Shown: piece by piece, positions 2,244 to 63,617 of the stretch
Layout: each line of letters begins with the position of its first letter
Numbering within the stretch: the stretch's first letter is position 1
NCBI GenBank assembly: GCA_023269085.1
Contig: JAHFML010000001.1
Coordinates: 108,578 to 172,577 of the forward strand
Source of the DNA: a bacterium
GTDB taxonomy: Bacteria; Patescibacteriota; Minisyncoccia; Phycocordibacterales; Phycocordibacteraceae
DNA length: 64,000 bases
Direction of reading: 5' to 3'
Notes under the pieces: generated by a model
What the model was told of the DNA's origin: nothing
Database searches by the model: none
The model's input: only the letters and a program-made list of their open reading frames with translations
Program-made: the position numbers and the translations under genes

Positions 2244-2972
2244 ATGGACAGTTTCAAAAATCAATTTGAAAGCAGACAGCCCGCGCTTGCCGGCCTGGCG
2301 ATTGCCGGGTTTATCGCGCTGGTCGCGTTCGGGATATGGCTCGCGGTCTACTCGACGCGCTTCGTCCCACCGATCGTGAGCCGCGTCAGCTCGGCCGCCG
2401 TCTATCTCGGCCAAGTCTTCACGCCTCACCGCGCCTCCCTCTCGGTCGTCCCGACCGCGACCTCGACCGTCATCTACTTCGGCGACGCGACGAGCTCTGC
2501 GACAACGACGACGCCACTAATAAAACCCGCACCGAAACCTGCCGCGACTATCGGTACCGAAGTAACTTCGAAGTATCCCGTAACGCCGACCGGCCTCCCT
2601 GACTTGCTCGTCACGATCAAGCGTATCGGCTACCTCGCGACCAGCTCGGCGAGCTCCTTCGTCGCGAGTTCAACCGTGCCTGCCGGCTACCGTCCTGCGG
2701 TCAAATTCTCGATTGAGAATATCGGCGGATCCGAGACGGGCGCATGGCGCTTCAACGCGTCGATCCCCACTGCGACCGCATTCATCTACAAGTCAGAGCC
2801 TCAGCAATCGCTTGCCTCGGGTGATAGCATCGACTACACACTCGGCTTCGATCAGGCGCTTCGGGGTGCCGGTAAGGCTGTCACTATCATCGCGAACTTC
2901 GATCACGCCTTCGCCGAGTCAACCCTTTCGAATAACACGGCGACCGCGACGGTCACCATACTCGGAAATTAA
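2244..2972 (+). CDS. membrane-anchored surface protein with a CARDB-like C-terminal domain
   Basis: N-terminal TM helix (LAGLAIAGFIALVAFGIWLAVY) and a Thr/Ser/Pro-rich linker. C-terminal VKFSIENIGGSETGAWRFNASIP resembles CARDB-type adhesion domains. Confidence 0.45.
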   Translation: MDSFKNQFESRQPALAGLAIAGFIALVAFGIWLAVYSTRFVPPIVSRVSSAAVYLGQVFTPHRASLSVVPTATSTVIYFGDATSSATTTTPLIKPAPKPAATIGTEVTSKYPVTPTGLPDLLVTIKRIGYLATSSASSFVASSTVPAGYRPAVKFSIENIGGSETGAWRFNASIPTATAFIYKSEPQQSLASGDSIDYTLGFDQALRGAGKAVTIIANFDHAFAESTLSNNTATATVTILGN

Positions 2973-5044
2973 ACGTCGAGATTCGCGAGCTTCGCGTTGC
3001 TCTGGATGAATGACTTGCGCGCGGCAACGTCGGTGCCCATGAGGATATCGAAGATGCGGTCGGCCGCCTCGGCGTCCTCGACATTGACGCGCTTCAAGAC
3101 GCGGCGCGCCGGGTCCATCGTCGTCTCCCAGAGCTCGCTCGGGTTCATCTCGCCCAAGCCCTTGTAGCGCTGGATGTTCACCTTGGTCGCCTTCTTCGCC
3201 ACAACGACCTCCTCTCCCTCGCCCGGCTCAAGACCTTCGGCTTCTCCTTCGGCCTCCATTGGATTCTCGATAATATCAGCAGGCGATGCACCGAGCTCCT
3301 TCAACACCTCCTCTTTTTCCTTGTCAGAATACGCATACGCGACCGACTTCCCTTTTGAAATCTTATACAACGGCGGCTGAGCGATATAGACGAAGCCGCC
3401 GTCGATAATCGGCTTGAAATGGCGGTAGAGAAGCGTGAGGAGGAGCGTGCGAATGTGCGCGCCGTCGACATCGGCATCGGTCGCGATAATTATCTTATGA
3501 TAGCGGAGTTTGCTCAAATCGAAGACATCGCCGATAGCCGTGCCCATAGCGACCACGAGCGCACGGATCTCGACCGAGGCGAGCATGCGGTCGATGCGTG
3601 CGCGTTCGACGTTCAATATTTTGCCGCGAAGCGGGAGGATAGCTTGCGTGCGACGATCGCGCCCCTGCTTGCTTGAGCCGCCGGCCGAATCGCCCTCGAC
3701 GATGAAGATCTCGCTCTCCTCGGCGCTCTTGGTCTGGCAGTCGGCGAGCTTGCCCGGGAGCGTCATGCCCTCGAGTGCGCCTTTGCGCAAGACAGAATCC
3801 TTCGCGGCCTTCGCGGCCTTGCGCGCCTTGAGGGCAATGAGCACCTTGTTCACAATAGCGCGCGCATCATCGGGGTTTTCTTCGAGAAAGGCGCCAAAGG
3901 CTTCGTTGAAGACGGTCGAAGTCGCCCCCTGCGCCTCCATGCTCCCGAGCTTCGCCTTGGTCTGGCCCTCGAATTGGATCTCGGGGAGCTTCACCGAGAC
4001 GACCGCGGTGATGCCTTCGAGCACGTCGTCGCCCGTGAAGTTCTCGTCCTTCTCTTTCAAAATATTCGCGGCACGGCCATAGGCGTTCAGCGAACGCGTG
4101 AGCGCCGTCTTAAAGCCAGTGATGTGCGTGCCGCCCTCGCTGTTGTAGGTGTTGTTGGCAAAGGCGGTCAAGCGCGGGGTGATGTCGTCGACATATTGGA
4201 GCGCGATCTCGACGATGACATTGTCCTGCTCCTTCTCGACATAAAAAATGTTTTTGTGCACCGGCTCTTGGTGCCGATTATAAAAAGCGACGAGCGACTT
4301 CAACCCGCCTTCGAAGTAGAAGGTCATCGAGGGACAATCCAATTTCTGTTCACGCAAGAAAATAGTATCTGTCTCAAAGGCCTTCGGCTCTTCGCGTGCG
4401 TCGACGACCGACACGCGCACATCTTTTATCAAATACGCCTGCTGGCGAAGGCGCGTCTCTATTTTTTCAATATCATAGGCGATTCCTTCTTTGAAAATGG
4501 TGATGTCCGGCTTGAAGATAACAATAGTGCCGTGCTCCTTTGAAGCGCCGATCTTCTTCACCTTCGCGAGCGGGATGCCAATCTTATACTCCTGCAGGTG
4601 CATGCCGCCGTCCTGATGCACGACGACCTTGGTGTGCTCTGAGAGCGCGTTCACGACCGACGCGCCGACGCCGTGCAGGCCGCCCGAGACCTTGTAGGCC
4701 TCGTTGTCGAACTTGCCGCCCGCGTGGAGCGTCGTCATGATAGTCTCGAGCGCCGAGACTTTTGTCTTCGGGTGGATGCCCACCGGGATGCCGTTGCCGT
4801 TGTCGGCGACGCGCACATAGCCGTCGGGCAAGAGCGCGACTTCGATATCGTCACAGCGATTGGCCATCGCCTCGTCGCGCGCATTGTCGAAGATCTCCCA
4901 GACGAGATGATGGAGGCCGTCGGGACCGGTCGTCCCGATGTACATGCCCGGGCGCTTGCGCACCGGCTCGAGCCCCTCGAGCACGGTAATAGACGAAGCG
5001 TCGTACGCCTTCGTTTTAGCCTCTTTCCCCGTGCTTTTTACCAT
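2969..5044 (-). CDS. gyrB: DNA gyrase subunit B
   Basis: 691 aa with a GHKL ATPase N-terminus (GLHHLVWEIFDNARDEA) and a TOPRIM region (EGDSAGGS). The C-terminus is full length. Confidence 0.95.
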   Translation of the reverse strand: MVKSTGKEAKTKAYDASSITVLEGLEPVRKRPGMYIGTTGPDGLHHLVWEIFDNARDEAMANRCDDIEVALLPDGYVRVADNGNGIPVGIHPKTKVSALETIMTTLHAGGKFDNEAYKVSGGLHGVGASVVNALSEHTKVVVHQDGGMHLQEYKIGIPLAKVKKIGASKEHGTIVIFKPDITIFKEGIAYDIEKIETRLRQQAYLIKDVRVSVVDAREEPKAFETDTIFLREQKLDCPSMTFYFEGGLKSLVAFYNRHQEPVHKNIFYVEKEQDNVIVEIALQYVDDITPRLTAFANNTYNSEGGTHITGFKTALTRSLNAYGRAANILKEKDENFTGDDVLEGITAVVSVKLPEIQFEGQTKAKLGSMEAQGATSTVFNEAFGAFLEENPDDARAIVNKVLIALKARKAAKAAKDSVLRKGALEGMTLPGKLADCQTKSAEESEIFIVEGDSAGGSSKQGRDRRTQAILPLRGKILNVERARIDRMLASVEIRALVVAMGTAIGDVFDLSKLRYHKIIIATDADVDGAHIRTLLLTLLYRHFKPIIDGGFVYIAQPPLYKISKGKSVAYAYSDKEKEEVLKELGASPADIIENPMEAEGEAEGLEPGEGEEVVVAKKATKVNIQRYKGLGEMNPSELWETTMDPARRVLKRVNVEDAEAADRIFDILMGTDVAARKSFIQSNAKLANLDV

Positions 5045-6074: not shown

Positions 6075-6659
6075 ATGAATGCAAAGATACCCGTCCAAGA
6101 TCGGAGGAAGATTGTTCTCCAGGCAAATATCTTGCGATTCCTCTATGTGGGCGGCGTCCTCACTACGGCGCTCGTTGCACCGAAATTTTTGCGTCTCATC
6201 GGTCCCTTTGATCGCAGTCAGCCGCGACGGAAGGAGCTCTATGCCCGTCTAGATCTCGCGCGTCGACGATTGAAGCAACGCGGCCTCGTGCGGGAAGAGA
6301 AAAAAGCGAATGGCACATTTCTGCGCCTGACGCCCGAGGGAGAGAAAAGCATCGAGAAGATACTCATGCGCGAATATCGCATCCCCGAGCAGGTACGGTG
6401 GGACGGCAAGTGGCGCATGCTCATTTTCGATATTCGAGAAAAACGCCGTGGCACCCGCGCGACTCTTCGCAAACTTCTCTCGGGAGCAGGATTCGTTCGC
6501 TTGCAAGACAGTGTGTGGATCCACCCCTATCCCTGTGACGAATTCGTCGCGCTAGTGCGCGCGCATCTCTCGAGTGGCATCGGGGAACTACGGTCTTGCG
6601 TCGTTGAAGCACTTGAATCTGACAAGTCGCTTCGGGAATATTTCCGTCTCGCTATATAA
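6075..6659 (+). CDS. PaaX-family-like transcriptional regulator
   Basis: WDGKWRMLIFDIREKRRGTRATLRKLLSGAGFVRLQDSVWIHPYP matches the PaaX C-terminal-domain signature (W.G.W..v.fdipe…r..l.g.G..lq.svwv.p). Confidence 0.55.
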   Translation: MNAKIPVQDRRKIVLQANILRFLYVGGVLTTALVAPKFLRLIGPFDRSQPRRKELYARLDLARRRLKQRGLVREEKKANGTFLRLTPEGEKSIEKILMREYRIPEQVRWDGKWRMLIFDIREKRRGTRATLRKLLSGAGFVRLQDSVWIHPYPCDEFVALVRAHLSSGIGELRSCVVEALESDKSLREYFRLAI

Positions 6660-6683: not shown

Positions 6684-6721
6684 ACGTACCAAATCGCTCC
6701 TATAGGAGCGATTTGGTACGT
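6684..6721. terminator. perfect 36-38-bp palindrome aCGTACCAAATCGCTCCTA|TAGGAGCGATTTGGTACGt, between convergent genes
   Basis: 18-bp arms with no loop mismatch. It sits 25 bp after the PaaX-like stop and about 37 bp after the pheT stop. It may act as a bidirectional terminator and/or an operator. Confidence 0.5.
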
Positions 6722-6757: not shown

Positions 6758-7936
6758 TTACCGTACTTCAAAGCCAGTGGCGGCGAGTGCCAGGGAGATT
6801 TTTTCCATAATCGCATTCACCTCGTCGTCGGTGAGGGTGCGCTCGGGCGACTCGAAGACGAGGCGGTAAGCATACGAAACCTTCCCTTCTTTCTCAAAGC
6901 GGTCGAACTGGTCGAGCTTCACGAGCAACGCTCCTGCTTGTTCCCAAATGTGGGACATCGTAAGTCCTACATCGGTGTCGGCTATCTTGGGAATCCAAAA
7001 AGCGATGTCGCGTGTGATGAAGGGATAGATTGAGAAGGGCTGGTACGCGCCGAGCTCATAACGCTTCGGCGTGTAGTCTTTGCCATAGTCTTCGAGTTTC
7101 GCTACCGAGAGATTGTCATGCGCGGGTACGCCCCACTCAACAACCGGCTCGGTCATGCGAAGCTCGACGAATTCTCCCGACTGCGGGAAGACCGTGCCGA
7201 CTTCAAAGAGCTTCGGCTTCTGCCCCGGTGCGAGCACGCGCGGCGCATTCAACTTCGCGCGCGCGAGCGCGTCAGCGAGATTCTCTTCGAGACTCGTGCG
7301 GAGCGCAGGCTTCGTCTTGTCGAGCGGGTTCGCGAGCAGAATATCACCCTTCGGGGCGAATGACTGCGTCGAGACTTCGGCGAATCCCTGTTCGACGAGC
7401 TGATCCTTCATCCGCTCGATGCCACGATAGCGATTCTGATCGACTTCACTCGCCGCAGGCGCGAGTTCTCTACCGATGATGCGTTCATACCCCAAGATCT
7501 GCCCGACCTCCTCGGCCACATCTTCAGGCACGACAATGTCGGTGCGCGGCAGAGGCGCGGTCACTCGCATCGTCTCGCCCTCTTCTGCAACCTTGAACTG
7601 CAATCGTCTGAACACATCGAGTATCTCTTCGCGCGAGAAGTCAGCGCCAAGGATAGCGTTCAGCCCTGCGACCGTCACCGCTACGGGTGATTGATTCGTA
7701 TACTCCGGTGCTTCTCCGCCTTTCATCGGCATGTCGAGAATAGCGGCGAGCTCGCGCGCGACCCCTTCTGCCGTCGCACAATCAGCCGCACGATTCGGCA
7801 AAACTTTGATATCGAGCAGATCGCCTTCGATGCTCTCTATCTCGAACGCGTGGAAGGTGAAGGCGTCAGCGAGCGCCGCGACCGGAGGGAGCGGCGCAGT
7901 GAAATATTCTTGCAGTTGTGTGCGCGTTATTTTCAT
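6758..7936 (-). CDS. pheT: phenylalanine--tRNA ligase beta subunit, minimal form
   Basis: N-terminal LDIKVLPNRAADC…GVAREL (TPNRADC motif), a B5-like segment (ILGADFSREEILDVFRRLQF…RTDIVVPEDVAEEVGQILGYERI) and a catalytic-like core. Only 392 aa. Confidence 0.8.
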   Translation of the reverse strand: MKITRTQLQEYFTAPLPPVAALADAFTFHAFEIESIEGDLLDIKVLPNRAADCATAEGVARELAAILDMPMKGGEAPEYTNQSPVAVTVAGLNAILGADFSREEILDVFRRLQFKVAEEGETMRVTAPLPRTDIVVPEDVAEEVGQILGYERIIGRELAPAASEVDQNRYRGIERMKDQLVEQGFAEVSTQSFAPKGDILLANPLDKTKPALRTSLEENLADALARAKLNAPRVLAPGQKPKLFEVGTVFPQSGEFVELRMTEPVVEWGVPAHDNLSVAKLEDYGKDYTPKRYELGAYQPFSIYPFITRDIAFWIPKIADTDVGLTMSHIWEQAGALLVKLDQFDRFEKEGKVSYAYRLVFESPERTLTDDEVNAIMEKISLALAATGFEVR

Positions 7937-8673
7937 ACTTCTTTTTCGTCAAAGCCGTATACAAAACGTATATCGCCCGAATGAATGAGCCGCACATCAG
8001 GAATGCCATATTTGACCATGAGCAGGCGCTCGAGCCCGCCGCCAAAGGCAAAGCCCGCAATCTTCTCCGAGTCGAGTCCGGCATTCTGTATCACGTTTGG
8101 GTGGAACATGCCGGCACCGGCTACTTCAAGCCACTTCCCCTCCTTACCCGGTGCTTCAAACCACACATCCACCTCGACCGAGGGCTCCGTGAAGCCGAAG
8201 AAGCTGGGGCGGAATCGCACCTTTGCGTCGGGCCCGAGATACTCGCGATAAAAACGTTCGAGCGTCCCCTTCAAGTGCGCGAGCGTCACGGTGCCCTTCG
8301 GCCCGACGGCAAATCCGTCGATCTGATAGAACTGCGCCTCGTGCGTCGCATCGGTCGCTTCATTACGGAAAACTTTGCCCGGCATAACGCAACGCAACTC
8401 GCTCCCGCCCTCTTTTGCCAGTCTCTCAAGTTCGCGAAGCGACACGGAGGTTGCGTGCGTCCGAAGAAGCCGGTCTGGCATATCCTTGGCCCAGAACGTG
8501 TCCTGCATACTGCGCGCAGGATGATTCGGCGGGATGTTGAGACCCGTGAAGACATGCCACTCATCCTCGAGCTCGGGGCCATAGGCAACGCCGAAGCCCA
8601 TGCGGCCGAATATATCCACGATCTCGCGGGTTGCGATCGTGATAGGGTGCAAGCGACCATGTTGACTCGTCAT
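7933..8673 (-). CDS. pheS: phenylalanine--tRNA ligase alpha subunit (short, lacks the N-terminal helical arm)
   Basis: Class II aaRS motifs (FRNEATDATHEAQFYQIDG; GFAFGGGLERL). Overlaps pheT by 4 nt. Confidence 0.9.
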   Translation of the reverse strand: MTSQHGRLHPITIATREIVDIFGRMGFGVAYGPELEDEWHVFTGLNIPPNHPARSMQDTFWAKDMPDRLLRTHATSVSLRELERLAKEGGSELRCVMPGKVFRNEATDATHEAQFYQIDGFAVGPKGTVTLAHLKGTLERFYREYLGPDAKVRFRPSFFGFTEPSVEVDVWFEAPGKEGKWLEVAGAGMFHPNVIQNAGLDSEKIAGFAFGGGLERLLMVKYGIPDVRLIHSGDIRFVYGFDEKEV

Positions 8674-8711: not shown

Positions 8712-9959
8712 ATGGGGTCTGATGCACTCACCTATCCGTTCATCTTTATCGCACTCTACTTCGAGTCGTTCATGCTCGTAACCTTCCTCTCTTCTCCTGC
8801 CCGCGCGCGCCGTGAGTGCGGGGCAACTGTCGTGCCCCTCGAATCGACTCCGCAGGTCGCCGTTATCGTCCCTTGCTGGAACGAAGAAGCGACCGTCGCT
8901 GGCACTGTCGAGTCCCTGCTTGCGCTCGACTATCCCGTCGACCGGCTCTCCCTCATCCTTATCAACGACGGTTCGACGGACGGCACTGGCGCCGTTATCG
9001 ACCGCTTCGCCCTTCACCCGCAGATCACCGCGCTCCACAAAGAGAACGGCGGCAAGTACACCGCGATGAATATCGGCGTTGACTACGCCAAGGACGCCGA
9101 GTTTATCGGCTTCCTCGACGCCGATTCCTTCGTTGCACCGGACTCGCTCCGCGAGATCGTCGCGAGTTTCGCCGAGCCGGGACTCTCGGCGGTCACGGCC
9201 TCGATGTCCATTCACGAGCCGCAGACGATCCTCCAGCGCATGCAATATGCCGAATACTCTCTTGCTATCACACTCCGCCACGTCTTCGCTTCGATCAACG
9301 GACTCTATGTCACACCCGGACCATTCTCCTTCTATCGCCGCTCGGTGCTGAGAGAGCTCGGCCCATTCAAGCACGCCCACCTCGCTGAGGATATGGAGAT
9401 GGCGATGCGCCTCCAACGCGCGGGCCACTCGATCGGCAACGCACTCCGCGCACGCGTCTACACCAAGGGCCCGACAACGCTCCCCAAGCTCGTCAAGCAG
9501 CGCACCCGCTGGACGACCGGTTTCTTGCGTAATGTCCTCTTCGACTATCGCGACTTGCTCTGGTCCAGGCAAAATCCCGTGCTCGGCTTCCTCATCCTGC
9601 CGCTCGGCCTCGTCGCGATAGTGGGCGGCATCCTTATCTTTTTCATCGCACTCACCGAGTTCGCACAGCGACTCCTCCACATGCTCTCGCTCGCTGGCGT
9701 CGCCCCGCTCTCCTACGCCTTCACCCTGCACCCCTTCAGCTGGTTCTATCTTCCCATTACGACCGTCGTCCTTATCGGCTTCGTGCTTACCTTGAGCACT
9801 TTTATCTGGATGTCGCTCGGCAAGAACCTCTCGAAGACACCTGGCCGGCTCCTGCCGAATCTGCTCGTCTATATTATGCTCTACGGCATCGTCGCGCCCG
9901 TGTGGCTTATCAATTCGATTTCGCACGTCGCGCGTGGCACCCGTACCGCGTGGCGCTGA
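8712..9959 (+). CDS. family 2 glycosyltransferase (membrane-integrated, processive-type)
   Basis: VAVIVPCWNEE…LILINDGSTDGT, a DAD motif, the QRTRWTTG (QxxRW) motif and multiple C-terminal TM helices. Confidence 0.8.
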   Translation: MGSDALTYPFIFIALYFESFMLVTFLSSPARARRECGATVVPLESTPQVAVIVPCWNEEATVAGTVESLLALDYPVDRLSLILINDGSTDGTGAVIDRFALHPQITALHKENGGKYTAMNIGVDYAKDAEFIGFLDADSFVAPDSLREIVASFAEPGLSAVTASMSIHEPQTILQRMQYAEYSLAITLRHVFASINGLYVTPGPFSFYRRSVLRELGPFKHAHLAEDMEMAMRLQRAGHSIGNALRARVYTKGPTTLPKLVKQRTRWTTGFLRNVLFDYRDLLWSRQNPVLGFLILPLGLVAIVGGILIFFIALTEFAQRLLHMLSLAGVAPLSYAFTLHPFSWFYLPITTVVLIGFVLTLSTFIWMSLGKNLSKTPGRLLPNLLVYIMLYGIVAPVWLINSISHVARGTRTAWR

Positions 9960-9979
9960 TTATTTCCTAAATCACTATC

Positions 9980-10654
9980 ATGTCGCTCTTCACTCGAAAT
10001 GCTATCATCGCTCTCGTCATCGCTCTCGGCATTACCGGCACGATTATCTATGCGGTTAGTTATTTGAATCGTGCGCGCATCGCCGAGCTCTCGACCATCG
10101 AGGACCAGCTCTCTATCGACACACTCTCCCTCGACACACAGTTCTCTCTGCTCGAAGCCGCGCCCTGCGAGAGCTCGGCGACATCGACCACGCTCACGAG
10201 TGAGCTCTCTGATCTCGGCAACCGCCTCTCCTATGCCGAGGACCAACTCGGAAGCGACAATCAACAAGTCATTCGGCTCAAGGAGCAATATTCTCTGCTT
10301 GAGATCCGCGACTACCTTATCAACAAACAACTTGCCGCCGCCTGCGGGACGAAGCCCGTCACCGTCCTCTACTTCTACAGCAATAAAAAAGGAACGTGTG
10401 CTGATTGCGACAAAGCCGGCTACGCACTCTCCTATCTACACACCACTTATCCCGCGCTCCGCGTCTACTCCTTCGACTATAATCTCGACCTCGGTGCCCT
10501 AAAGACGCTCATTGCACTTCTCAAGATCGACAACGACCTGCCCGCCTTCGTAATTAACGGTAAACATTCTTCTGGCTTCACCTCCCTCGCCGATCTCGAG
10601 AAGCAATTCCCCAAGGGCGCCCTCGCGACGACTACTACTCCTACTAAGAAGTAA
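9980..10654 (+). CDS. hypothetical membrane-anchored protein
   Basis: N-terminal TM (AIIALVIALGITGTIIYAV), a coiled-coil-like middle and a CADCDK Cys pair. Confidence 0.4.
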   Translation: MSLFTRNAIIALVIALGITGTIIYAVSYLNRARIAELSTIEDQLSIDTLSLDTQFSLLEAAPCESSATSTTLTSELSDLGNRLSYAEDQLGSDNQQVIRLKEQYSLLEIRDYLINKQLAAACGTKPVTVLYFYSNKKGTCADCDKAGYALSYLHTTYPALRVYSFDYNLDLGALKTLIALLKIDNDLPAFVINGKHSSGFTSLADLEKQFPKGALATTTTPTKK

Positions 10655-10680
10655 CGAAGTCTGACTTCGTTACTTCACTT

Positions 10681-10756
10681 TGGAGCCGGAGGTCGGGCTC
10701 GAACCGACGACCTGCTCATTACAAGTGAGCTGCTCTACCATCTGAGCTACTCCGGC
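10681..10756 (-). tRNA. tRNA-Thr (anticodon UGU), CCA encoded
   Basis: The minus-strand read GCCGGAGTAGCTCAGATGGTAGAGCAGCTCACTTGTAATGAGCAGGTCGTCGGTTCGAGCCCGACCTCCGGCTCCA folds as a cloverleaf with anticodon loop CTTGTAA. Confidence 0.9.
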
Positions 10757-11182: not shown

Positions 11183-11764
11183 CTAGCGCGTCGAGAGCCG
11201 CGCGAAGCCGCCGATGATGACGCGCTCTCCGAACTTCTGCGTCGCTTCGTTCAAAAGATCACGGATAGTCTTGGTCTCATCCTTGATGAAGGTCTGCTCG
11301 GTGAGCACCTGATCGCGGAAGTAGCTCGCAAGCTTCCCCTCGAGAATCTTGGCCTGCATGTCCGCGGGCTTGTCGGCGACCTCCTTCTCGAATACGGCAG
11401 TCGCGGTGTCACGCGCCTCCTGTGGGATGTCTTCGATCGTCGCATAGGCTGGCTCCGTCGCGGCGACCTGCATCGCGACCTCGCGCGCGAGCGCTACGAA
11501 CTCGGGGTTCTTGGCGACGAAGTCCGTCTCGCAAGAGAGGATGACCATCGCGCCGACCGCACCCTCGTGCACATAGCTCCCGATAGCGCCCGCACCGAGC
11601 GTGCGATCAGACTTCTTGTCGGCACTCGCGGCAGAGTGCTTCTTCAAGATGACCTCTGCTTGAGCGACATCGCCCTGAGCCTCTTCGAGCGCCTTCTTGC
11701 ACTGCATGATAGAGACGCCGGTCTTGTCGCGCAATTCTTTTATGATGTTGGTCGTGATTTCCAT
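11183..11764 (-). CDS. tsf: elongation factor Ts (short form)
   Basis: The N-terminal UBA-like motif (ITTNIIKELRDKTGVSIMQCKKALEEAQGDVAQAEVILKK) and the dimerisation core both match EF-Ts. Confidence 0.9.
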   Translation of the reverse strand: MEITTNIIKELRDKTGVSIMQCKKALEEAQGDVAQAEVILKKHSAASADKKSDRTLGAGAIGSYVHEGAVGAMVILSCETDFVAKNPEFVALAREVAMQVAATEPAYATIEDIPQEARDTATAVFEKEVADKPADMQAKILEGKLASYFRDQVLTEQTFIKDETKTIRDLLNEATQKFGERVIIGGFARLSTR

Positions 11765-23966: not shown

Positions 23967-26900
23967 TTATGTCGCCGGCGTGGCCGTCGCATCGACGGGA
24001 GTTGGCGCTACGGGAGAGGACGGCGGCGCGATGACCGTCACTACGCGCGATGCCGAGCCGACATTCCCCGCCGCGTCCGTCGCCGAGTAGGTCAGCGTGG
24101 TGAGGCCGATGGCCGCGGTATCGACCGCGCCAGTCTCGACGATCTTCGCGGTGAGATTGCCGTCAACATTATCGAGCGCCGTCGCGCCAGGGTCGGTGAA
24201 GGTATCACCTTGCGTCAGCTGTATCGCCGCCGCGCCGTTCAAGATGACGACCGGCGATGTCGTGTCGCCCTGCGGTGAGCCGGTCGAACCCGTCGAGGCC
24301 GGCGTCGATGATGCGGTGCCACTCGTCGCTGATACGCCGCTCGCTCCGCTCGCGGCGCCCCCTTGCGGCGTGCTCGACGCGACTGGCGCTATAACCACGG
24401 GCGCGGGCGCGCTCGCCGAGGTGCCGAGCGTGTTCGGCGTCGAGGTCGCCAATTGCCCCTCTGTCTGCACCAAGAAGTAATCGAAGGAGACATCAATCGT
24501 CTGCGGTGCCGAGAGCACGACGCGGAAGGATCCTGCCGTCTTATCAGCGACCCACCAGCTCCCGCTAATTTGTGAATTGAAGGTGACGAAGACTTTGGTC
24601 GACGGGAGAACGAGCGAGTTCTGCACCTGAGCGACGGTGTTGCCGGTGATGATGCTCACGCTCCCGGCGCTACTCGTACCGTCGGCGTCCTTCGAGGCGA
24701 CGATCTGACGGAAGACGAGCGTGTTGAACTGCGCGATGCCCTTCTCTATCAAGACGCCGAAGCCCTGCAAAGCACTCGCGAGCGAGGTCGTCCCGAGGGC
24801 GAGCGGCGACGCGCTCGCGACACTGACCGCTCCGCTCTCGAGCTTCGCGACGCGCGCCTCAAGCGAGGTGAGTCGCGTCCCTTGGGCATCAATTTTCCCT
24901 GCGAGCAACGAGACATTCGCCACCGCATAGGTCGCGAGCTTGTAGAGATCAACTTGCCGACCGTCGGCGGTCAAGACGGCGAGCGGTGTCGAGGTCGCGC
25001 CAGCAGGCACGTCGAGCTTCGCGTCGAGCTGTTGGATAGCCTTGGTCAACACCGACGTGAAGTTCGCATAGACGAAGCCGTTCGGATTCCCCTGCTCATC
25101 GCGCGTCACGAGCCTTGAATCCACGAGCGCCGCCTGCTCGGCGATGAAGCCAAGCTGAGTCGTCGCGCCATTGTCGCCATAGCCCTTGATGAAGGTGAAG
25201 GAGACCGGCTTCAAGGCGAGCACCTCATCGAGACCAGAGACCGAGGAGAGCGGCACGATGTTGGTCTTGAACTTCTCCGACGAGAGCGTACAGGTCGTCC
25301 CCGCCTCAATCTCATGCGTCACCGTGTTCCAGCAGAGGTAGTCGCCGGTGGTCGAGACCGTCGGCGAATCGATCGCCATGCTCCCTGCGACCGAGAGCTT
25401 ACGCCACGGGCTGGTGGTGCCGATGCCGATATTCCCCGTACTCACCGTCGCACCTGTCCCGCTCAACCCTGTCCCATATATCATGTTCCCGATATTGAGT
25501 TGGTTGCTTGCGGTCGCGCTCGGCACAGCGACGTCATTGCCGATGCTGATGTTGTTCGAGCCGGTCGTTACCTGATTCTGCGAGGCGGCGATAACGCTGT
25601 TGCCGAGGAAGGTGTTGCGGGCACCTGAGGTGATGCTGTAGCCCGATAGGTAGCCAACAAGGGTGTTGTAGTTGGAGTTGGTCTGGGCGGAGTAGCCCGC
25701 TTGGTAGCCGAGGTAGGTGCCGCCTTGGTTGGAGTAGGCGGCGGTGCCGCCGCCGGCGTTATAACCGACAGCGACCGAGGAGGAGGCGGAAGTATTGTAG
25801 CGAAGAGCAAATGAGCCGACAGCCGTGTTGAATGAGCCGGTGATGTTGGTGTTGAGCACCGAACGGCCGAGAGCTGTGTTGGAGTTGCCTGTTGTCAACA
25901 CCGGCAAAGTGAAAGCACCAAGTACTGTGTTGCTGTTGCCGGTTCTGTTAACATTCAAAGCATTCACGCCAACCGCTGTGTTTGTTGATGCTGTTCCGTT
26001 CGTCGGTGTCGTACCGAGCGCCCCCTGCCCGATTGCAATGTCGTAGAAGAGCGTCGAGGTTGCGCGCATCCAACCGGCGGCGCCGGTAGTGCCGAGGGCG
26101 AGTGAGAAGTTCGTCGTCGAAGCGTAGAGGACAGTATTCCCTGCTTGTTTGAAGCCTGAGTATTGGTCGGTGTTCACATAGCCGGCGACGTCGAGCTTGT
26201 AGGCAGGGGCGGTGAGGCCGATGCCGATATTCCCCGTACTCACCGTCGCACCTGTCCCGCTCAACCCTGTCCCATATATCATGTTCCCGATATTGAGTTG
26301 GTTGCTTGCGGTCGCGCTCGGAACAGCGACGTCATTGCCGATGCTGATGTTGTTCGAGCCGGTCGTTACCTGATTCTGCGAGGCGGCGATAGTGCTGTTG
26401 CCGAGGAAGGTGTTGCGGGCACCTGAGGTGATGCTAAAGCCCGATTGGTAGCCAACAAGGGTGTTGTAGTTGCTGCCGGTGGCAAGAACATAGCCGGATT
26501 GGAAGCCGACATAGGTGCCGCCCGTGTTGGAGTAGGCGGCGGTGCCTTGACCTGCCTGATGACCGATGGCGACTGAGGAGGTGGCGGAAGTATTGTAGCG
26601 AAGAGCAAAGTAACCGAATGCGGAGTTGTTGTTGCCAGTAATGTTCGAGTAGAGAGCGTTGTTACCATACGCAGAGTTACTGTTCCCTGTCGTGTTAAAG
26701 CGGAGTGTGTTGAATCCAAAAGCGCTATTCGTATTTCCAGTCGTATTGAGTGCGAGTGCTCCATATCCGAAAGCGTTATTTATCTTCCCGCTCGTGTTTG
26801 CACCCAAAGCACTGAACCCCACAGCGACATTGAACTGAGAGAGACCATTCGTCGGCACTGTCTGCAAAGCCCCCTGTCCAATCGCCACGTCGTAGAAGAG

Positions 26901-29900
26901 GGTTGAGGTCGCCCGCATCCAGTTAGCGGCAGAGGAGGCGCCAATGGCAAGAGATGAGTTCGTCGTCGATGCATACAAGACCGTGTTGCCTGCTTGCTTG
27001 AAGCCACTGTATTGGTCGGTGTTCACGTAGCCCGCGACGTCGAGCTTCTGGGTTGGCGAAGTTCCCACTCCCACATTCCCATTCGCCAAGATGTTGAGTG
27101 ACCCGATGGTGGAGGAAGCAGAGGCGATGATGCCGTTGGTGAAGCCGATGGTAGTGGAGGTGGAGACGCCCCACGCAGTCGGAGTGAAGGGCCAGGCGAA
27201 GGAGTCTTTGGTATTGAACGTATTCCAGTCCGTACTCGAGAGCCAGCCGTTCGTGCTGGTGTTCGCTTGGGTCATGGCGACGGTGTTGGCAGAGATGGTG
27301 AGCGGGAGGGTGGCAGAGACGATACGCGAGGTGTAGGCGGTGTTGAAGTGCGACCAATCTGCTTGGGCGAGGTAGCCGTCGGTGGTGCCGTTTGATTGGG
27401 CGATGGTGAGCGGTGAGCCGCTAGTGCCGTTGCCGGTCAAGGGTGCGGAGACGGCGACCGCAGTGAGAGCATTGGCGGCGACGCAGACACCGTTGATCGC
27501 ATAGCAACCCTTCTTCAAGTTGATGCCGTAGCCGAAGGTGGAAGTGGCGACATTTGAGATGTTGATGGTGTTAGCACCCGTGTTGCCGAGGGAGAGGAGT
27601 GAGCCCGGGGTGGTGGTGCCGATGCCGAGAAGACCAGTTGAAACGAGCGACATAAGTTCTGAATATCCGCCAGCGTTATAGTCATACCCCCAGAGCATTC
27701 TGGCGGTACCAGGGTTCCCTGATACCGGGAGCACTTCATTCTTGAAGTTTACCGTGCGCGAGGCCGCCGCGCCGGTATCCCACACCGTGCCGCTCAGGCG
27801 GAGACGAGGCGACATTTGTACCGTAGCTCCGGCTGTTGCCGCGGTGGTATTCGTCAGGATGATTCCATCTGTCGAGACTGCCGCAAGTGCTGTCCGTGTA
27901 TTGGTAAGTGTATTAGTCATCGCAAGACTAGAAATACTAGAAAGTGCCCCTCCGGATGTCAAAGTGAAGCGAGTAGTATATGCACCCCCGTTCACTCCAG
28001 AAGCAAAAATGAGATTGGATGTTGGATTTGCAGATCCTTGTACCGGAAGTGCATACATCTGCCAGTCGGTCCTTTGGCTCGCAACTGGGGTTGTCGCCCA
28101 TCCTTGTCCAGTGAATCGAAGAGAAGGGCTTATCTGTTGCGCTCCTGCTGAAGCCGCCGTCATGTTTTCAATAGCAAGACCAGAAGAGTTCGTTTGTATA
28201 ACTCCTAGAGCATTGGCGGCGACGGTAAGAAGCGAAGATGGCATCGGCGTTCCAACACCGACATAGCCATTCTTGTCGACCACAAAGCTCGTCTTGGTCG
28301 AAGAGCCGATGGCGAAAGAAAGCCGGCCGGCGGGTGCGTTCACCGAGAGCGTCGCCCAGGGGGTGGTGGTGCCGATGCCAAGGCGATCGTCTGCGGTCAA
28401 GACTGAGGAGAGCGCGCCTGAGGTGTTGTAGATGTCGATGATATGCGCCGTCTGGCTCGCCGAAGGGACGAGCGCGAGCGTCGTGGTCGCGACCGAGCCC
28501 GAGATCACCGCGAACTTCGCATAGAGCGTCGAGGTCGCGCCGACCGCGACGAGATAGGTCGAGGTAGCGAGCGAGACAGTGTGCTTGGTCGCATCGCTTG
28601 CCCAGCCACCGCCGACCGATGCGCCCGAGGTGTTGATCAGGCCGCAGGAGACATTCCCCGAGCCGTCGGTCTGGAGCGCCTGCGTGCCGGTACAAGAGGT
28701 GATGCTAGAGAGCGCGAGCGAGTTGGTGAATCGCGCCGTGCCTGCGACGTCGAGCTTATAGGCTGGCGCGGCCGTGCCGATACCGACATTGCCGGCGATA
28801 TACGAGATGTCCGCGCCTGAGGTCGCCCACGGCGATGAGACTTTGCTGTTGAAGATATTCCAATCGGTCGATGAGAGATATCCGTTCGCCGTGCTCGAGG
28901 CCTGCGCGAGCGAGAGCACATTGCCGGCGAAGGAGAGCGGGGCCGTCGCTAAGGTGATGCGTGAGGCATAGGCGGTGTCCCAGTTCGCACTATTGGCGTT
29001 CCAACCGGCGTAAGCAGAATTCCAATTGGTAGAATTGGCGGCGACGGTATCGTAGGAGCCATTCCAGTTCGTCGTTGAGGCGATGAGCGGAATTATGTAG
29101 CCGCTCGCGATCGAGAAGGCGCCCGTGCCTGAGTTGTAGGAGAGCGGGCCAGAGGTAGAGAGCGCCGCGCGCGCACGAGCGTCGGTGTAGTAGAGGTTCG
29201 CGCCTTCCGCGAGATTGGTCGTCGACTTGTTCGTGAGCCAATAATTGGTCGAGGTTGTCGAGAAGAAGAAGTCCTTGTTGAAGAGGCCGAGTGTAGTCGT
29301 CGAGAGGCGACTATTAAAATCGTTCCAATCGATACTGGAGAGGAAGCCGTTCGACGAGTTCCCTGCCTGCGCGATCGAGAAGGCGCCCGCGCCTGAGTTG
29401 TAGGCGAGCGGGCCAGAGGTAGAGAGCGCCGCGCGCGCACGAGCGTCGGTGTAGTAGAGGTTCGTGTTCCCCTCCTTAAGCCCATCGGTCGTCGTGGCAT
29501 ACCAATTCGCGAGAGAGAGCTTCGCGTTGAGCGCACTCTGGAGATCGGTCTGATTCGCGAGGACCCCGGTGATGTTCCCCCAGACGGCGCTCGTGATGCC
29601 GAGCGACGAGGTGGCGACCGCAACGAGTTTGCCGTTCGCGTTCGTGCCGAGAAGCGGCGCATTCGCGAGGCCAGAAAGCCACGTCGACCCCGAGACGGTG
29701 AGCGCCGTTGTTGATGCATAGGGGAAGACAGAAGCGAGCGACGAAGTGGCAACGAAGTGTCCGGAGGTTATCTGGCCGGCATTGCTAAATGAAGAGAGAT
29801 AGCTGGCGATGTCGGTCGAGCCGATGAAGAGATTGTCGAACTTGCCGGTTGTCGCCGAGACGAGACCGCCGCCGGTGAGGCTCCCCCCGCGGAAGTCGCC

Positions 29901-33035: not shown

Positions 33036-34451
33036 TTAGCCAAGAGTAGCGATGATGAGTTCGCGGAGTAGGGTCGGATTGCCGGCACCTCGCGTAGCTT
33101 GCATGCTCTTGCCGACGAGGTATTGCAAAGCCGCGTCCTTCCCCGATCGGTACTCGATAACCGCCTTGACCTCTTCTTTAAGCACGCTCTCGACCGCAGT
33201 GCGCAAGAGCGTCGCGTCATGCACCTGGATCAACCCGTGCTCCGTGGCGATATTCTCGGGATCTCCCCCCTTCTCGACGAGCAGAGCGAGCGTGTCCTTA
33301 GCCCCGCGCGATGAGAGTTCGCCTGTGTCAATGAGCTTGATGAGCTTCGCAAAAGCCTTCGGGTCAAGAGCCGCATATTCTTCGCACCCCTGTTTGGCAT
33401 ATATACCTGCAAGATCCGATACGATATAGTTCACGGCGATTGAGACAAGACGGCGATCCATACCAAGTTCTTCCGTAAGAGCATCAAAGAATGTCGCGCG
33501 CTCGAGCGTGTCCACTACATAGGCGATATCACTCTCTTTCAAAGCAAAAGCTTCTGTGTACCGCGTTCGACGCTCCCAGGGGAGCTCGGGAAGTGATGCG
33601 CGTATCACCGCATCACTGAAATCAGCAATCTCCGACCGATACATCTTCGGGAGATCTGGTTCAGGGAAGTAGCGATAGTCGGCGCTCCCCTCCTTAAAGC
33701 GTTGGTGAAAGGTTATCTGCTTCGATTCATCCCATCCGCGCGTCTCCTGCACGACCGCCCCGCCGCTCTCAATAAGCGCTGACTGCCTTTCGATCTCGTG
33801 TGCGATAGCGCGCTCGACCGAACGAAACGAGTTCAGGTTTTTGACTTCGACTTTCGTGCCGAGCTTCCCTTCTTCCTTCGAAACCGAGATGTTCGCTTCG
33901 ATGCGCATTTCTCCCTTCTCGAGATTTGCTTCTCCTGCACGAAGGGTACGGAGAAGGAGCTGCAATTCTCGTGCGAATCTCCCTGCCGTCGCCGCATCGT
34001 GAATCACGGGTTCAGTGACCAGCTCCATGAGCGGCACGCCGGAACGATTGAAGTCGACACAACTCCCTTCTTTCGCGTGTGTCGAGCGCGCCGTGTCTTC
34101 TTCGAGATGCACGCGGGTGACCGCAACACCCGCGAGCTCTCCACCCTCTACGAAGGGATGTTCGTATTGACTGATCTGATACCCTTTAGGGATATCAGGA
34201 TAGAAATAGCTCTTGCGATCGAATTCACTGAAATCCGCGAGCTCCCCGCCGAGGGCCGTACCAACCCGCAGGATATGCCGCACTGCTTCTCGATTGATCA
34301 CAGGCAATGTCCCCGGGTGTGCGAGACATACGGGGCAGACATGCGTATTCGGTTTTACTTCGTCAGCGTCATTCGCACAGCGACAGAACATCTTAGTCGC
34401 TGTTTTGAGCTCGGCGTGTATCTCAAGTCCTATGGTCGGGCGGTACTCCAT
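33036..34451 (-). CDS. gatB: Asp-tRNA(Asn)/Glu-tRNA(Gln) amidotransferase subunit B
   Basis: MEYRPTIGLEIHAEL…CRCAND…CPVCL (GatB N-terminal Zn motif) and the C-terminal YqeY-like tail. Confidence 0.9.
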   Translation of the reverse strand: MEYRPTIGLEIHAELKTATKMFCRCANDADEVKPNTHVCPVCLAHPGTLPVINREAVRHILRVGTALGGELADFSEFDRKSYFYPDIPKGYQISQYEHPFVEGGELAGVAVTRVHLEEDTARSTHAKEGSCVDFNRSGVPLMELVTEPVIHDAATAGRFARELQLLLRTLRAGEANLEKGEMRIEANISVSKEEGKLGTKVEVKNLNSFRSVERAIAHEIERQSALIESGGAVVQETRGWDESKQITFHQRFKEGSADYRYFPEPDLPKMYRSEIADFSDAVIRASLPELPWERRTRYTEAFALKESDIAYVVDTLERATFFDALTEELGMDRRLVSIAVNYIVSDLAGIYAKQGCEEYAALDPKAFAKLIKLIDTGELSSRGAKDTLALLVEKGGDPENIATEHGLIQVHDATLLRTAVESVLKEEVKAVIEYRSGKDAALQYLVGKSMQATRGAGNPTLLRELIIATLG

Positions 34452-53019: not shown

Positions 53020-53561
53020 TCGAGCGCCTCTACCTGCGCCACCATCTGGGCATACGCGTCAACGATCGGGTGTTGCCACGACTCGTGTAGCATCGCGAGC
53101 ATCGACTCTTCAAACCATACTTTCTTCTCGCGGCCCGCGTTGAAATAGTTCCAGACGGCATTTCCCTCGCGCGCATGCGCCGCGATGAGACTCTCGGCAT
53201 TCGCTATTTTGTCGGCCGTCGCTATCGCCTTCGCGTCTTCGGGCGCGACACGCACCGCTTCGATATAGGCCCGTTTCTTCTCCTCCCACGGGAGGGTGTC
53301 GTCGTGTGTCACGGGCGCGACGAGATCGGCAACCGCGTCGCCAAGCTCTCGCCGGACATCGTCGAGCGAAACAGGTGTATCTTCCACGACATCATGCACG
53401 AGCCCCGCCGCAATGACCTCGTCTGAGAACCCATACCGTGCGAGCAAGAGAGCGACGCGGACAGGATGGACAATATAGGGCGTCGGCGCCTCCTTGCGCA
53501 TCTGCCCCTCGTGCGCGCGAAGCGCGAGTGCGATTGCCTTTTCGACAAGCGGTCCGTTCAT
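53016..53561 (-). CDS. HD-domain hydrolase, RelA/SpoT-type (small alarmone hydrolase-like)
   Basis: AHEGQMRKEAPTPYIVHPVRVALLL…VHDVVEDT matches the SpoT hydrolase HD signature. Confidence 0.65.
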   Translation of the reverse strand: MNGPLVEKAIALALRAHEGQMRKEAPTPYIVHPVRVALLLARYGFSDEVIAAGLVHDVVEDTPVSLDDVRRELGDAVADLVAPVTHDDTLPWEEKKRAYIEAVRVAPEDAKAIATADKIANAESLIAAHAREGNAVWNYFNAGREKKVWFEESMLAMLHESWQHPIVDAYAQMVAQVEALD

Positions 53562-63322: not shown

Positions 63323-63395
63323 TGCACGCTCTAGGAGTCGAACCTAGGACCGCTCGAGTATCAGTCGAGTGCTCTACCAACTGAGCTAAGCGTGC
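63323..63395 (-). tRNA. tRNA-Ile (anticodon GAU), CCA not encoded
   Basis: Minus-strand read GCACGCTTAGCTCAGTTGGTAGAGCACTCGACTGATACTCGAGCGGTCCTAGGTTCGACTCCTAGAGCGTGCA, with anticodon loop CTGATAC. Confidence 0.9.
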
Positions 63396-63617
63396 AAGCG
63401 AACTCTCGCAGTGTAGCAAATTTTGTGAAAAAGAAAAAGATGTCGTGTGCGCTCTTTTGTTCCGCCTATTCTGTACCGGTCGAGAGCTCATATGTGGCTC
63501 TCGACCACCATCGGGTTACGTTATCCGACTTCCGAGTGCTGTTTAGAGACAAGCACCATCTCTCCATTTTCCGAAGAAAATGATCGACATGATTTTCCTT
63601 TCGAGAAAATCGGTTCC

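What the first reader, a model, noticed from the sequence alone, without database searches (positions are those of the whole stretch)
6758..8673. Minimal Phe-tRNA synthetase: 392-aa PheT without OB-fold, B3/B4 editing or anticodon-binding domains, plus a 246-aa PheS
Bacterial PheT is about 790 aa. Here the N-terminal helical segment and the TPNRADC element (LDIKVLPNRAADC) are followed almost directly by a B5-like block and the class-II-like core, and the protein ends there. The tRNA-binding OB domain, the B3/B4 editing domain and the C-terminal anticodon-binding domain are all missing.

PheS lacks its N-terminal coiled-coil arm. Loss of the B3/B4 editing site implies no hydrolysis of Tyr-tRNAPhe. 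That is a notable fidelity trade-off, comparable to mitochondrial PheRS.
Basis: partly seen in the sequence, partly recalled or inferred. Interest (0 to 1): 0.55.

Follow-up and report, generated by a model that had tools for sequence, protein, structure and literature searches.

The report
Editing-free minimal Phe-tRNA synthetase in CPR bacterium

Summary
The two genes are real. pheS (7933-8673, 246 aa) and pheT (6758-7936, 392 aa) lie on the minus strand and overlap by ATGA.

Domain and structure searches confirm that PheT has no OB-fold (B2) and no B3/B4 editing domain, and that PheS has no N-terminal coiled coil. The C-terminal anticodon-binding domain (B8, FDX-ACB, E=2e-17) is present, and its G34-recognition residues are invariant. 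It is the class-II-like core that is half-truncated.

The window comes from a Kaiserbacteria-like Parcubacterium. Close relatives (60-69% identity, same rpsB-tsf-pheS-pheT-gyrB locus) have a 604-aa PheT that differs by one clean ~213-residue block, a B3/B4 domain with every editing residue intact.

The short form is under purifying selection (dN/dS 0.06-0.2). It occurs in about 100 sequence clusters and arose at least twice independently.

No B3/B4 is encoded elsewhere in the 64 kb. Residues conserved only when B3/B4 is present have decayed in every short lineage: beta W7, H56, R57, F129, and the alpha Asp after HPAR.

Best reading: this is the cell's only PheRS and it has no cis post-transfer editing. 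That makes it a new structural variant of the known trend of editing loss in reduced genomes. A trans-editing factor elsewhere in the genome cannot be excluded.

The parts
7933..8673 (-). pheS: 246-aa PheRS alpha subunit, consisting of the class II catalytic core only with no N-terminal coiled coil
   Evidence: Pfam tRNA-synt_2d E=1.4e-80. TIGR00468 pheS scores 249.6 bits against a cutoff of 237.45. It aligns to E. coli PheS 102-326. The ORF cannot be extended upstream.
6758..7936 (-). pheT: 392-aa PheRS beta subunit with architecture B1 - B5 - partial CLM - B8, lacking B2 and B3/B4
   Evidence: The AlphaFold2 model has pLDDT 85.9. All of the top Foldseek PDB hits are bacterial PheRS beta chains, E down to 1.8e-21.
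7933..7936 (-). ATGA overlap between the pheS stop codon and the pheT start codon (translational coupling)
   Evidence: Sequence read.
7727..7936 (-). B1 domain (PheT residues 1-70), including the PNRAADC element. The B2 OB-fold that is normally inserted after about residue 38 is absent.
   Evidence: Residues 39-66 align to T. thermophilus beta 154-180. N48, R49 and D52 are invariant.
7685..7726 (-). Variable linker (residues 71-84) at the site where B3/B4 was excised. The deletion point lies between codons 80 and 81 (bases 7697/7696).
   Evidence: Alignment A1 of 391-aa and 604-aa forms shows a gap of about 213 residues exactly here. The linker sequences vary among short forms.
7487..7684 (-). 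B5 domain (residues 85-150)
   Evidence: Pfam B5 at residues 86-150, E=7.6e-16.
7049..7486 (-). Remnant of the catalytic-like module B6/B7 (residues 151-296). The second half is reduced to about 42 residues.
   Evidence: Pfam tRNA_synthFbeta at residues 165-253 matches profile positions 14-109 of 214. The region aligns to T. thermophilus 411-581 and then skips 582-682. Residues 191-212 are conserved but have low pLDDT in the monomer model.
6761..7048 (-). B8 ferredoxin-fold anticodon-binding domain (residues 297-392)
   Evidence: Pfam FDX-ACB E=2e-17. It aligns to T. thermophilus 683-780. D345, S354 and R392 are invariant and F347 is F or Y in 83 sequences.
8509..8511 (-). PheS codon 55 (Ser), the residue after the HPAR motif, equivalent to E. 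coli alpha A153. It is Asp whenever B3/B4 is present and never Asp when it is absent.
   Evidence: Asp in 38 of 39 long-form genomes and in 0 of 23 short-form genomes across four lineages. It is the only such column among 246.
6684..6721 (.). Perfect 17-bp inverted repeat with a 4-nt loop between convergent pheT and the PaaX-like ORF (6075-6659). It looks like a terminator, so nothing is encoded in frame after pheT.
   Evidence: Sequence read. ORF list. Pfam PaaX_M hit for 6075-6659.

Best explanation
These two genes encode the organism's only phenylalanyl-tRNA synthetase, a minimal two-subunit bacterial-type enzyme.

- The alpha subunit (246 aa) is the bare class II catalytic core.
- The beta subunit (392 aa) keeps B1, B5, about half of the catalytic-like module that pairs with alpha, and the B8 domain that reads the GAA anticodon.
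- An ancestor in the Parcubacteria/Paceibacteria had already lost the alpha coiled coil, the B2 OB-fold and part of B7.
- In the window's lineage the whole B3/B4 editing domain was then removed by one clean in-frame deletion.

The enzyme therefore still charges tRNAPhe but cannot hydrolyse Tyr-tRNAPhe or meta-Tyr-tRNAPhe in cis. Accuracy then rests on the synthetic site, and possibly on kinetic discrimination, together with tolerance of some Phe-to-Tyr mistranslation.

Shown here: the architecture, orthology, selection, recurrence of the loss, and decay of residues that are conserved only alongside B3/B4.

Inferred: catalytic activity, loss of editing activity, and the effect on fidelity.
For: Architecture:
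- Pfam, NCBIfam and PDB alignments, a confident AlphaFold2 model and fold matches to PheRS beta chains only.

Orthology rather than paralogy:
- pheS and pheT are adjacent in 62 of 64 related loci.
- The same rpsB-tsf-...-pheS-pheT-gyrB synteny holds for the window, for the long-form locus L066 and for divergent short forms.
- All 64 related loci come from different assemblies, so no genome carried both a short and a long form.

Clean excision:
- The 391-aa and 604-aa forms are collinear and about 63% identical on both sides of a gap of about 213 residues.

The deletion removed a working module:
- All 18 sister long forms keep T249, N250, H261, G315, E334, T354 and A356 in T. thermophilus numbering. 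PMC3275996 names most of these as the editing site.

The gene is functional:
- dN/dS is 0.06-0.2.
- The B8 residues aligned to T. thermophilus D729, Y731, S742 and R780 are invariant.
- PheS passes the pheS equivalog cutoff.

Recurrence:
- At least two independent losses on the locus tree.
- Nine further divergent short representatives at 35-42% identity, placed at 8 separate positions on an indicative tree.

No relocated domain:
- Two B3/B4 HMMs and a 604-aa query find nothing else in six frames of the window.
- The stand-alone-looking B3_4 hits that were checked are in-situ fragments of ordinary pheT genes.

Decay of contact-like residues in all four short lineages:
- Beta W7, L54, H56, R57, D74 and F129 and the alpha Asp after HPAR.
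- This argues that no B3/B4 module docks back in trans.
Against: - Only 64 kb of a genome that is probably under 1 Mb was available. A distant free-standing deacylase (CtdA-like B3/B4, or an unrelated fold) elsewhere in the genome cannot be excluded.
- No biochemical data exist for this enzyme.
- In T. thermophilus the alpha coiled coil is involved in tRNA binding (PMC3275996). An enzyme lacking the coiled coil, B2 and half of the CLM must bind tRNA differently, and this was not modelled.
- The synthetic-site pocket residues (T162, A209, F159, F161) are unchanged relative to editing-proficient relatives. No obvious compensating gain in specificity is visible.
- PheT fails the pheT_bact equivalog cutoff (170 against 402.65 bits), as a domain-deleted protein would be expected to.
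Confidence: 0.8

Rival explanations
1. Editing is retained but outsourced. A free-standing trans-editing protein encoded elsewhere in the genome (a B3/B4 or CtdA-like protein, or another deacylase fold) clears Tyr-tRNAPhe, so fidelity is not reduced.
For: - Trans-editing factors are common for other synthetases, for example YbaK for ProRS (abstract of PMC3973320).
- A stand-alone B3/B4-fold deacylase, CtdA, exists (PMC12268091).
- Only 64 kb of the genome could be inspected.
Against: - No B3/B4 was found in any frame of the window.
- The best 120 B3/B4 homologues of the sister domain were PheT fragments. The two long-contig cases that were inspected were in-situ split pheT genes.
- Residues conserved only together with B3/B4 have decayed in all four short lineages. 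This argues against a B3/B4 module re-docking on the same surface. It does not exclude a factor acting on free Tyr-tRNAPhe.
Confidence: 0.13
2. The 392-aa protein is a PheT-related paralogue with another role, as the NCBI name 'beta-related protein' implies, and a canonical pheT lies elsewhere in the genome.
For: - It fails the pheT_bact equivalog cutoff.
- NCBI annotates its relatives as 'subunit beta-related protein' or 'hypothetical protein'.
Against: - It is translationally coupled to the only pheS in the window.
- It sits at the same syntenic position as the long pheT of relatives.
- It nests inside the long-form clade.
- No assembly among the 64 loci yielded both forms.
- Its anticodon-recognition residues are invariant.
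Confidence: 0.04
3. The short gene is a pseudogene, or an assembly or binning artefact of a normal pheT.
For: Fragmented pheT genes do occur in some assemblies (L065 and L066).
Against: - An identical protein was recovered from NCBI, ENA and Logan assemblies.
- Ninety-seven of the 120 best clusters share the same boundaries.
- dN/dS is 0.06-0.2.
- The reading frame is uninterrupted and a terminator-like hairpin follows it.
Confidence: 0.01

Closest known systems
Canonical bacterial (alpha-beta)2 PheRS (T. thermophilus 1PYS/2IY5; E. coli 3PCO)
   Same: - Two subunits encoded by a pheS-pheT operon.
- A class II core in the alpha subunit.
- B1, B5, the catalytic-like module and the B8 anticodon-binding domain in the beta subunit, with the G34-recognition residues conserved.
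   Different: - Lacks the alpha coiled coil (about 100 aa).
- Lacks beta B2 (about 115 aa), B3/B4 (about 210 aa) and about 60 aa of B7.
- Totals 638 aa per alpha-beta pair, against about 1,120-1,135 aa.
- Has no cis editing site.
604-aa PheT of sister Kaiserbacteria/Paceibacteria (for example P0017, L030, L066)
   Same: - 60-69% identical and collinear.
- Same locus.
- Same coiled-coil-less PheS.
- Same absence of B2 and same truncated CLM.
   Different: The sisters retain a B3/B4 domain with all editing residues invariant, the alpha Asp after HPAR, and beta W7, H56, R57 and F129.
Mitochondrial monomeric PheRS (human 3CMQ/3TUP; TIGR00469)
   Same: - No editing domain, no coiled coil and no B2.
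- Keeps the catalytic core plus a B8-type anticodon-binding domain (PMC3275996).
- The window's B8 domain matches it at E~7e-7.
   Different: - The mitochondrial enzyme is a single chain that fuses the core and B8, and it works as a monomer.
- Here the core and B8 are on separate subunits, and B1, B5 and half of the CLM persist. A heteromeric enzyme is therefore expected.
- The pheS_mito scores are far below the cutoff.
Mycoplasma mobile PheRS and other editing-degenerate synthetases of reduced genomes
   Same: A bacterial PheRS without canonical post-transfer editing in a small-genome organism. The Mycoplasma enzyme relies on kinetic proofreading and tolerates mistranslation (PMC3553970). The general trend is noted in PMC7373986.
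   Different: - Mycoplasma keeps a defunct B3/B4 domain that a few point changes can reactivate. Here the entire domain is excised.
- This genome is GC-rich (about 57%), so AT bias cannot be the driver.
- Sister lineages keep an intact editing site.

Membership tests
Bacterial PheRS beta subunit (PheT; TIGR00472 pheT_bact) | Whole-protein score above the equivalog cutoff | tested here: not met
   170.2 bits against a cutoff of 402.65. This is the expected result of losing about 400 residues.
Bacterial PheRS beta subunit (PheT; TIGR00472 pheT_bact) | B2 OB-fold tRNA_bind domain (PF01588) | tested here: not met
   No hit at E<=1. Residues 38/39 join T. thermophilus 38 directly to about 154. The domain is also absent from all related long forms that were tested.
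Bacterial PheRS beta subunit (PheT; TIGR00472 pheT_bact) | B3/B4 editing domain (PF03483) | tested here: not met
   No hit at E<=1. A clean gap of about 213 residues relative to the 604-aa sisters. None elsewhere in the window.
Bacterial PheRS beta subunit (PheT; TIGR00472 pheT_bact) | B5 domain (PF03484) | tested here: met
   E=7.6e-16, 58.5 bits against a cutoff of 28.6.
Bacterial PheRS beta subunit (PheT; TIGR00472 pheT_bact) | Complete catalytic-like module B6/B7 (PF17759) | tested here: inconclusive
   25.0 bits against a cutoff of 22.4, but only profile positions 14-109 of 214 are covered. T. thermophilus 582-682 is replaced by about 42 residues.
Bacterial PheRS beta subunit (PheT; TIGR00472 pheT_bact) | C-terminal B8 ferredoxin-fold anticodon-binding domain (PF03147) with G34-recognition residues | tested here: met
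   E=2e-17. D345, F347, S354 and R392 align to T. thermophilus D729, Y731, S742 and R780 and are invariant or nearly so. The role of those T. thermophilus residues is from my own recollection of the 1997 tRNA-complex structure.
Bacterial PheRS beta subunit (PheT; TIGR00472 pheT_bact) | Encoded immediately downstream of pheS at the conserved locus | tested here: met
   ATGA overlap. Adjacency in 62 of 64 loci. Shared synteny.
Bacterial PheRS beta subunit (PheT; TIGR00472 pheT_bact) | Supports tRNAPhe aminoacylation together with PheS | not testable with these tools
   Inferred from purifying selection and from its being the only pheT homologue seen.
PheRS alpha subunit (PheS; TIGR00468) | Class II core (PF01409) and equivalog score above the cutoff | tested here: met
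   PF01409 E=1.4e-80. TIGR00468 scores 249.6 against 237.45.
PheRS alpha subunit (PheS; TIGR00468) | N-terminal coiled-coil tRNA-binding arm | tested here: not met
   The alignment starts at E. coli residue 102. The ORF cannot be extended. The arm is also absent from all 62 related PheS sequences.
Mitochondrial-type monomeric PheRS (TIGR00469 pheS_mito) | Catalytic core and B8 fused in a single chain, with a score above the cutoff | tested here: not met
   The two parts are on separate genes. Scores are 109.7 (PheS) and 47.9 (PheT) against a cutoff of 258.35.
Archaeal/eukaryotic PheRS beta (TIGR00471 pheT_arch) | Equivalog score above the cutoff, and no B8 domain | tested here: not met
   48 bits against a cutoff of 282.65. 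B8 is present.

The most novel reading that the evidence does not exclude
Whole-domain excision of the PheRS editing module has happened repeatedly in Parcubacteria, while sister lineages keep a fully intact editing site. Each loss is accompanied by the same change in the other subunit: the Asp following the HPAR motif at the rim of the synthetic site becomes Ser, Gly or Ala (Glu in one lineage).

If that alpha residue belongs to the pathway that hands the aminoacylated 3' end from the synthetic site to the editing site, or forms an alpha-to-B3/B4 contact, these lineages would be a natural experiment. They would map the coupling between synthesis and editing, and they would define the smallest working two-subunit PheRS (638 aa per alpha-beta pair).
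Probability: 0.35. Interest if true: 0.65.

Novelty: new variant of a known kind. Interest (0 to 1): 0.5.

Why it matters
PheRS is the largest and most elaborate class II synthetase, and its B3/B4 editing domain is regarded as a standard part of every two-subunit PheRS. These lineages show that a free-standing bacterial lineage, not only organelles, can delete the domain outright.

The deletion comes on top of earlier loss of the alpha coiled coil, B2 and half of the catalytic-like module. What remains defines a natural minimal core: alpha core plus B1, B5, half of the CLM and B8.

The closest relatives keep an intact editing site. The short and long pairs therefore form a ready-made comparison for three questions:
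- how much proofreading matters in organisms with tiny proteomes and host-dependent lifestyles;
- which residues couple the synthetic and editing sites;
- how such an enzyme binds tRNA without its usual arms.

There is also an annotation problem. These genes are currently named 'beta-related protein' or 'hypothetical protein', which could make genomes look as if they lack pheT.

Tried and rejected
1. Missing domains encoded nearby or out of frame. HMMs of the sister B3/B4 block and of 116 diverse B3/B4 segments, and the full 604-aa protein, were run against all six frames of the 64 kb. The best E-value was 3.6, so nothing was found.

2. Free-standing B3/B4 genes. The search with the sister B3/B4 block returned mostly fragments. 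The two long-contig cases inspected (P0155, P0127) are split or frameshifted pheT genes at the normal locus.

3. A compensating change in the Phe pocket of PheS. The equivalents of E. coli T251 and A294 and the two pocket Phe residues are unchanged. V/L to F at PheS position 190 is specific to the window's clade and does not recur in other short lineages, so it was treated as a lineage marker.

4. tRNAPhe identity elements. No tRNA-Phe gene lies in the window.

5. Counting the losses precisely. The tree of 50%-identity representatives is star-like. Its count of 8 changes is only indicative, and only the count of at least 2 from the locus tree is relied on.

6. Prior literature.
   - No paper describing a B3/B4-less bacterial PheT or CPR synthetase editing loss was found in six searches.
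   - Melnikov et al. 2018 (PNAS), the paper most likely to overlap, is not held. It is known here only through reviews.

7. A regulatory leader upstream of pheS. Only about 38 nt separate pheS from a divergent glycosyltransferase gene, and there is no Rfam hit.
Full report
**What is in the sequence.** A 246-aa ORF lies at 7933-8673 and a 392-aa ORF at 6758-7936. The stop codon of the first overlaps the start codon of the second in the sequence ATGA. Downstream of the second ORF there is a perfect 17-bp inverted repeat (6684-6721), followed by a convergent PaaX-like gene. Upstream of the first ORF, about 38 nt separate it from a divergent glycosyltransferase gene. There is therefore no room for extra exons or out-of-frame fragments next to the pair.

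**Domain content.**
- The 246-aa protein is a PheS catalytic core. Pfam tRNA-synt_2d gives E=1.4e-80, and TIGR00468 scores 249.6 bits against a cutoff of 237.45.
- It aligns to E. coli PheS residues 102-326 only, so it has no N-terminal coiled coil.
- The 392-aa protein has B5 at residues 86-150 (E=7.6e-16).
- It has a partial catalytic-like module at residues 165-253, matching profile positions 14-109 of 214.
- There is no tRNA_bind hit and no B3_4 hit, even at E<=1.

**Mapping onto T. thermophilus PheT (785 aa)**:

| Window PheT residues | T. thermophilus beta residues | Note |
|---|---|---|
| 39-66 | 154-180 | B1, weak alignment |
| 92-254 | 411-581 | B5 and first half of CLM |
| 297-392 | 683-780 | B8 |

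- The missing parts are about 39-153 (B2), about 190-400 (B3/B4) and most of 582-682 (B7).
- An AlphaFold2 model built from 83 sequences is confident (mean pLDDT 85.9).
- The exception is a conserved loop at residues 191-212, which probably becomes ordered against the alpha subunit.
- Its structural neighbours are bacterial PheRS beta chains (E down to 1.8e-21), followed by mitochondrial PheRS through B8.
It is wrong about the anticodon-binding domain.

**Where it comes from and how common it is.**
- The identical protein is present in NCBI, ENA and Logan assemblies.
- The named relatives are Kaiserbacteria, Parcubacteria, Paceibacterota or Minisyncoccota metagenome-assembled genomes.
- Of the 120 best homologue clusters, 97 are 360-419 aa and 23 are about 600 aa. 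The 600-aa proteins carry PF03483.
- Aligning the two forms shows a single clean gap of about 213 residues between query residues 80 and 81. The flanks are collinear, with 63% mean column identity.
- Both forms lack B2 and share the truncated CLM.
- Their PheS partners are about 240-250 aa whichever PheT form is present, and pheS-pheT adjacency holds in 62 of 64 loci.
- The coiled-coil, B2 and B7 reductions are therefore older features of this clade. The B3/B4 deletion is the recent, lineage-specific step.

**Orthologue, not paralogue or artefact.**
- The window's gene order places pheT (6758-7936), pheS (7933-8673) and a glycosyltransferase (8712-9959) between gyrB (2969-5044) and tsf (11183-11764).
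- This matches L066, a relative whose pheT has B3/B4. It also matches two divergent short-form loci with the order rpsB-tsf-x-pheS-pheT-gyrB.
- All 64 genome loci come from different assemblies, so none yielded both a short and a long gene.
- dN/dS against relatives is 0.06-0.2.
- The B8 residues that align to T. thermophilus D729, Y731, S742 and R780 are D, F, S and R. Three are invariant and the fourth is F or Y in 83 sequences. These are the G34-binding residues as I recall them from the tRNA-complex structure.

**The deletion removed a working module, and it happened more than once.**
- All 18 sister long forms keep T249, N250, H261, F263, G315, E334, T354 and A356 in T. thermophilus numbering.
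- PMC3275996 names Glu-beta334, Gly-beta315, His-beta261, Asn-beta250 and Thr-beta249 as the editing site.
- On a tree built from shared columns, the window's clade of 18 short sequences nests inside the 604-aa forms.
- A second short clade (L045, L047, L053; 435-454 aa; 38-39% identity) nests among forms of about 640-670 aa.
- An exhaustive search of 50%-identity representatives adds nine more full-length short proteins at 35-42% identity, all with B5, CLM and FDX-ACB and without B3_4.
- On a star-like NJ tree these fall in 8 separate places. I rely only on 'at least two, probably several' losses.

**Is editing supplied some other way?**
- Nothing resembling B3/B4 is encoded in any frame of the 64 kb.
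- A search with the sister B3/B4 block returned PheT fragments. The two long-contig candidates inspected were split pheT genes at the normal locus.
- Residues that are conserved only when B3/B4 is present have decayed in all four short lineages examined.
- In PheT, six of 148 conserved columns behave this way. W7 and H56 are 40 of 40 in long forms, and L54, R57, D74 and F129 are nearly so. All six are replaced by assorted residues in every short lineage.
- In PheS, exactly one of 246 columns behaves this way, the residue after HPAR. It is Asp in 38 of 39 long-form genomes and never Asp in 23 of 23 short-form genomes (S/G; G/A; G; E).
- The Asp before HPAR (position 50) behaves similarly in most short forms.
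- This pattern is what one expects if B3/B4 is truly gone from the complex, rather than re-docking as a separate subunit.
- It does not exclude an unrelated deacylase acting on released Tyr-tRNAPhe.
- The pocket residues of the synthetic site are unchanged. No obvious gain in Phe/Tyr discrimination is visible.

**Mechanism proposed.**
- The alpha core activates Phe and transfers it to tRNAPhe.
- The beta subunit contributes the partner half of the dimer interface through the CLM remnant, and anticodon recognition through B8.
- With B3/B4 absent there is no cis post-transfer editing.
- Fidelity then depends on the synthetic site and perhaps on kinetic discrimination, as shown for Mycoplasma mobile PheRS (PMC3553970), and on tolerance of some mistranslation.
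- It is my inference, not a result, that an oxygen-poor, host-dependent lifestyle with a small proteome lowers the cost of Tyr or meta-Tyr misincorporation.

**Comparison with what is known.**
- Editing loss in reduced genomes is an established theme. Examples are Mollicutes PheRS, LeuRS and ThrRS (PMC4014445), small-genome bacteria in general (PMC7373986 citing Melnikov 2018) and mitochondrial PheRS (PMC3275996).
- What differs here is the form of the loss. A complete, clean domain excision has occurred in a two-subunit bacterial PheRS, in a GC-rich genome (about 57%). It is recurrent, and sister lineages still keep an intact editing site.
- I found no paper describing it, although the most relevant survey could not be read.
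- Databases label these proteins 'beta-related protein' or 'hypothetical protein'.

**Verdict.** I rate it a new variant of a known kind and of moderate interest. The alpha/beta co-variation gives it a testable mechanistic angle.

Noticed in passing
window 8509-8511 (PheS codon 55) and 8524-8526 (codon 50); related loci L001-L069: The PheS residue after the HPAR motif is Asp in 38 of 39 genomes whose PheT has B3/B4. It is never Asp (S, G, A or E instead) in 23 of 23 genomes without B3/B4, across four lineages. It is the only such column among 246. The Asp before HPAR (position 50) behaves similarly but less strictly. The replacements are mostly small residues, which suggests a directional change rather than pure relaxation.
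   Followed up: partly
window pheT codons 7, 54, 56, 57, 74, 129 (within 7550-7918): Six PheT positions in B1, the linker and B5 are near-invariant in 40 long forms (W, L, H, R, D, F). They are replaced by varied residues in every short lineage. They are probably former contacts with B3/B4.
   Followed up: partly
window 34067-34158 (-): ARAGORN calls a 92-nt tRNA-Arg(GCG) here. It lies inside the gatB ORF (33036-34451) and Rfam's tRNA model does not support it, so it is probably a false positive.
   Followed up: partly
window 23967-31637 (-): A giant 2,556-aa ORF with an N-terminal HTH_17 hit, a Peptidase_S74 (endosialidase chaperone) domain and a C-terminal bacterial Ig-like surface domain. 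Most of its length has no Pfam match.
   Followed up: no
window 63323-64000 (-): The 3' end of a 16S rRNA gene (63619-64000, cut by the window edge) is followed by tRNA-Ile(GAT). This is the start of an rRNA operon and could be used to place the organism.
   Followed up: no
window 6684-6721: A perfect 17-bp inverted repeat with a TATA loop lies between convergent pheT and a 194-aa PaaX_M (Cas2-like) ORF at 6075-6659. It is probably a bidirectional terminator, though no long T run follows it.
   Followed up: no
window 53558-55717 (-) and 56862-58637 (-): A 719-aa fusion of an NAD-dependent epimerase/dehydratase with a GT4 glycosyltransferase lies next to a 591-aa TrwB/TraG-like type IV coupling protein homologue.
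   Followed up: no
L065:4423-7089 and L066:5001-6765: In two other assemblies an ordinary long pheT is called as two or more pieces at its normal locus (for example 375 aa plus 202 aa). These are likely frameshifts or assembly errors. Such fragments can pass for stand-alone B3/B4 proteins in database searches.
   Followed up: partly
L068:10091-11836 and L069:10677-12413: The ThrRS genes near the short pheT in two divergent lineages (581 and 578 aa) still hit tRNA_SAD, which is part of the ThrRS editing domain. Editing loss in these genomes is therefore not global.
   Followed up: no
window 8712-10756: Relative to the conserved rpsB-tsf-x-pheS-pheT-gyrB order seen in other lineages, the window has extra genes between tsf and pheS: a GT2 glycosyltransferase, a 224-aa membrane-anchored ORF and tRNA-Thr(TGT). 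It also has several small ORFs between pheT and gyrB.
   Followed up: no
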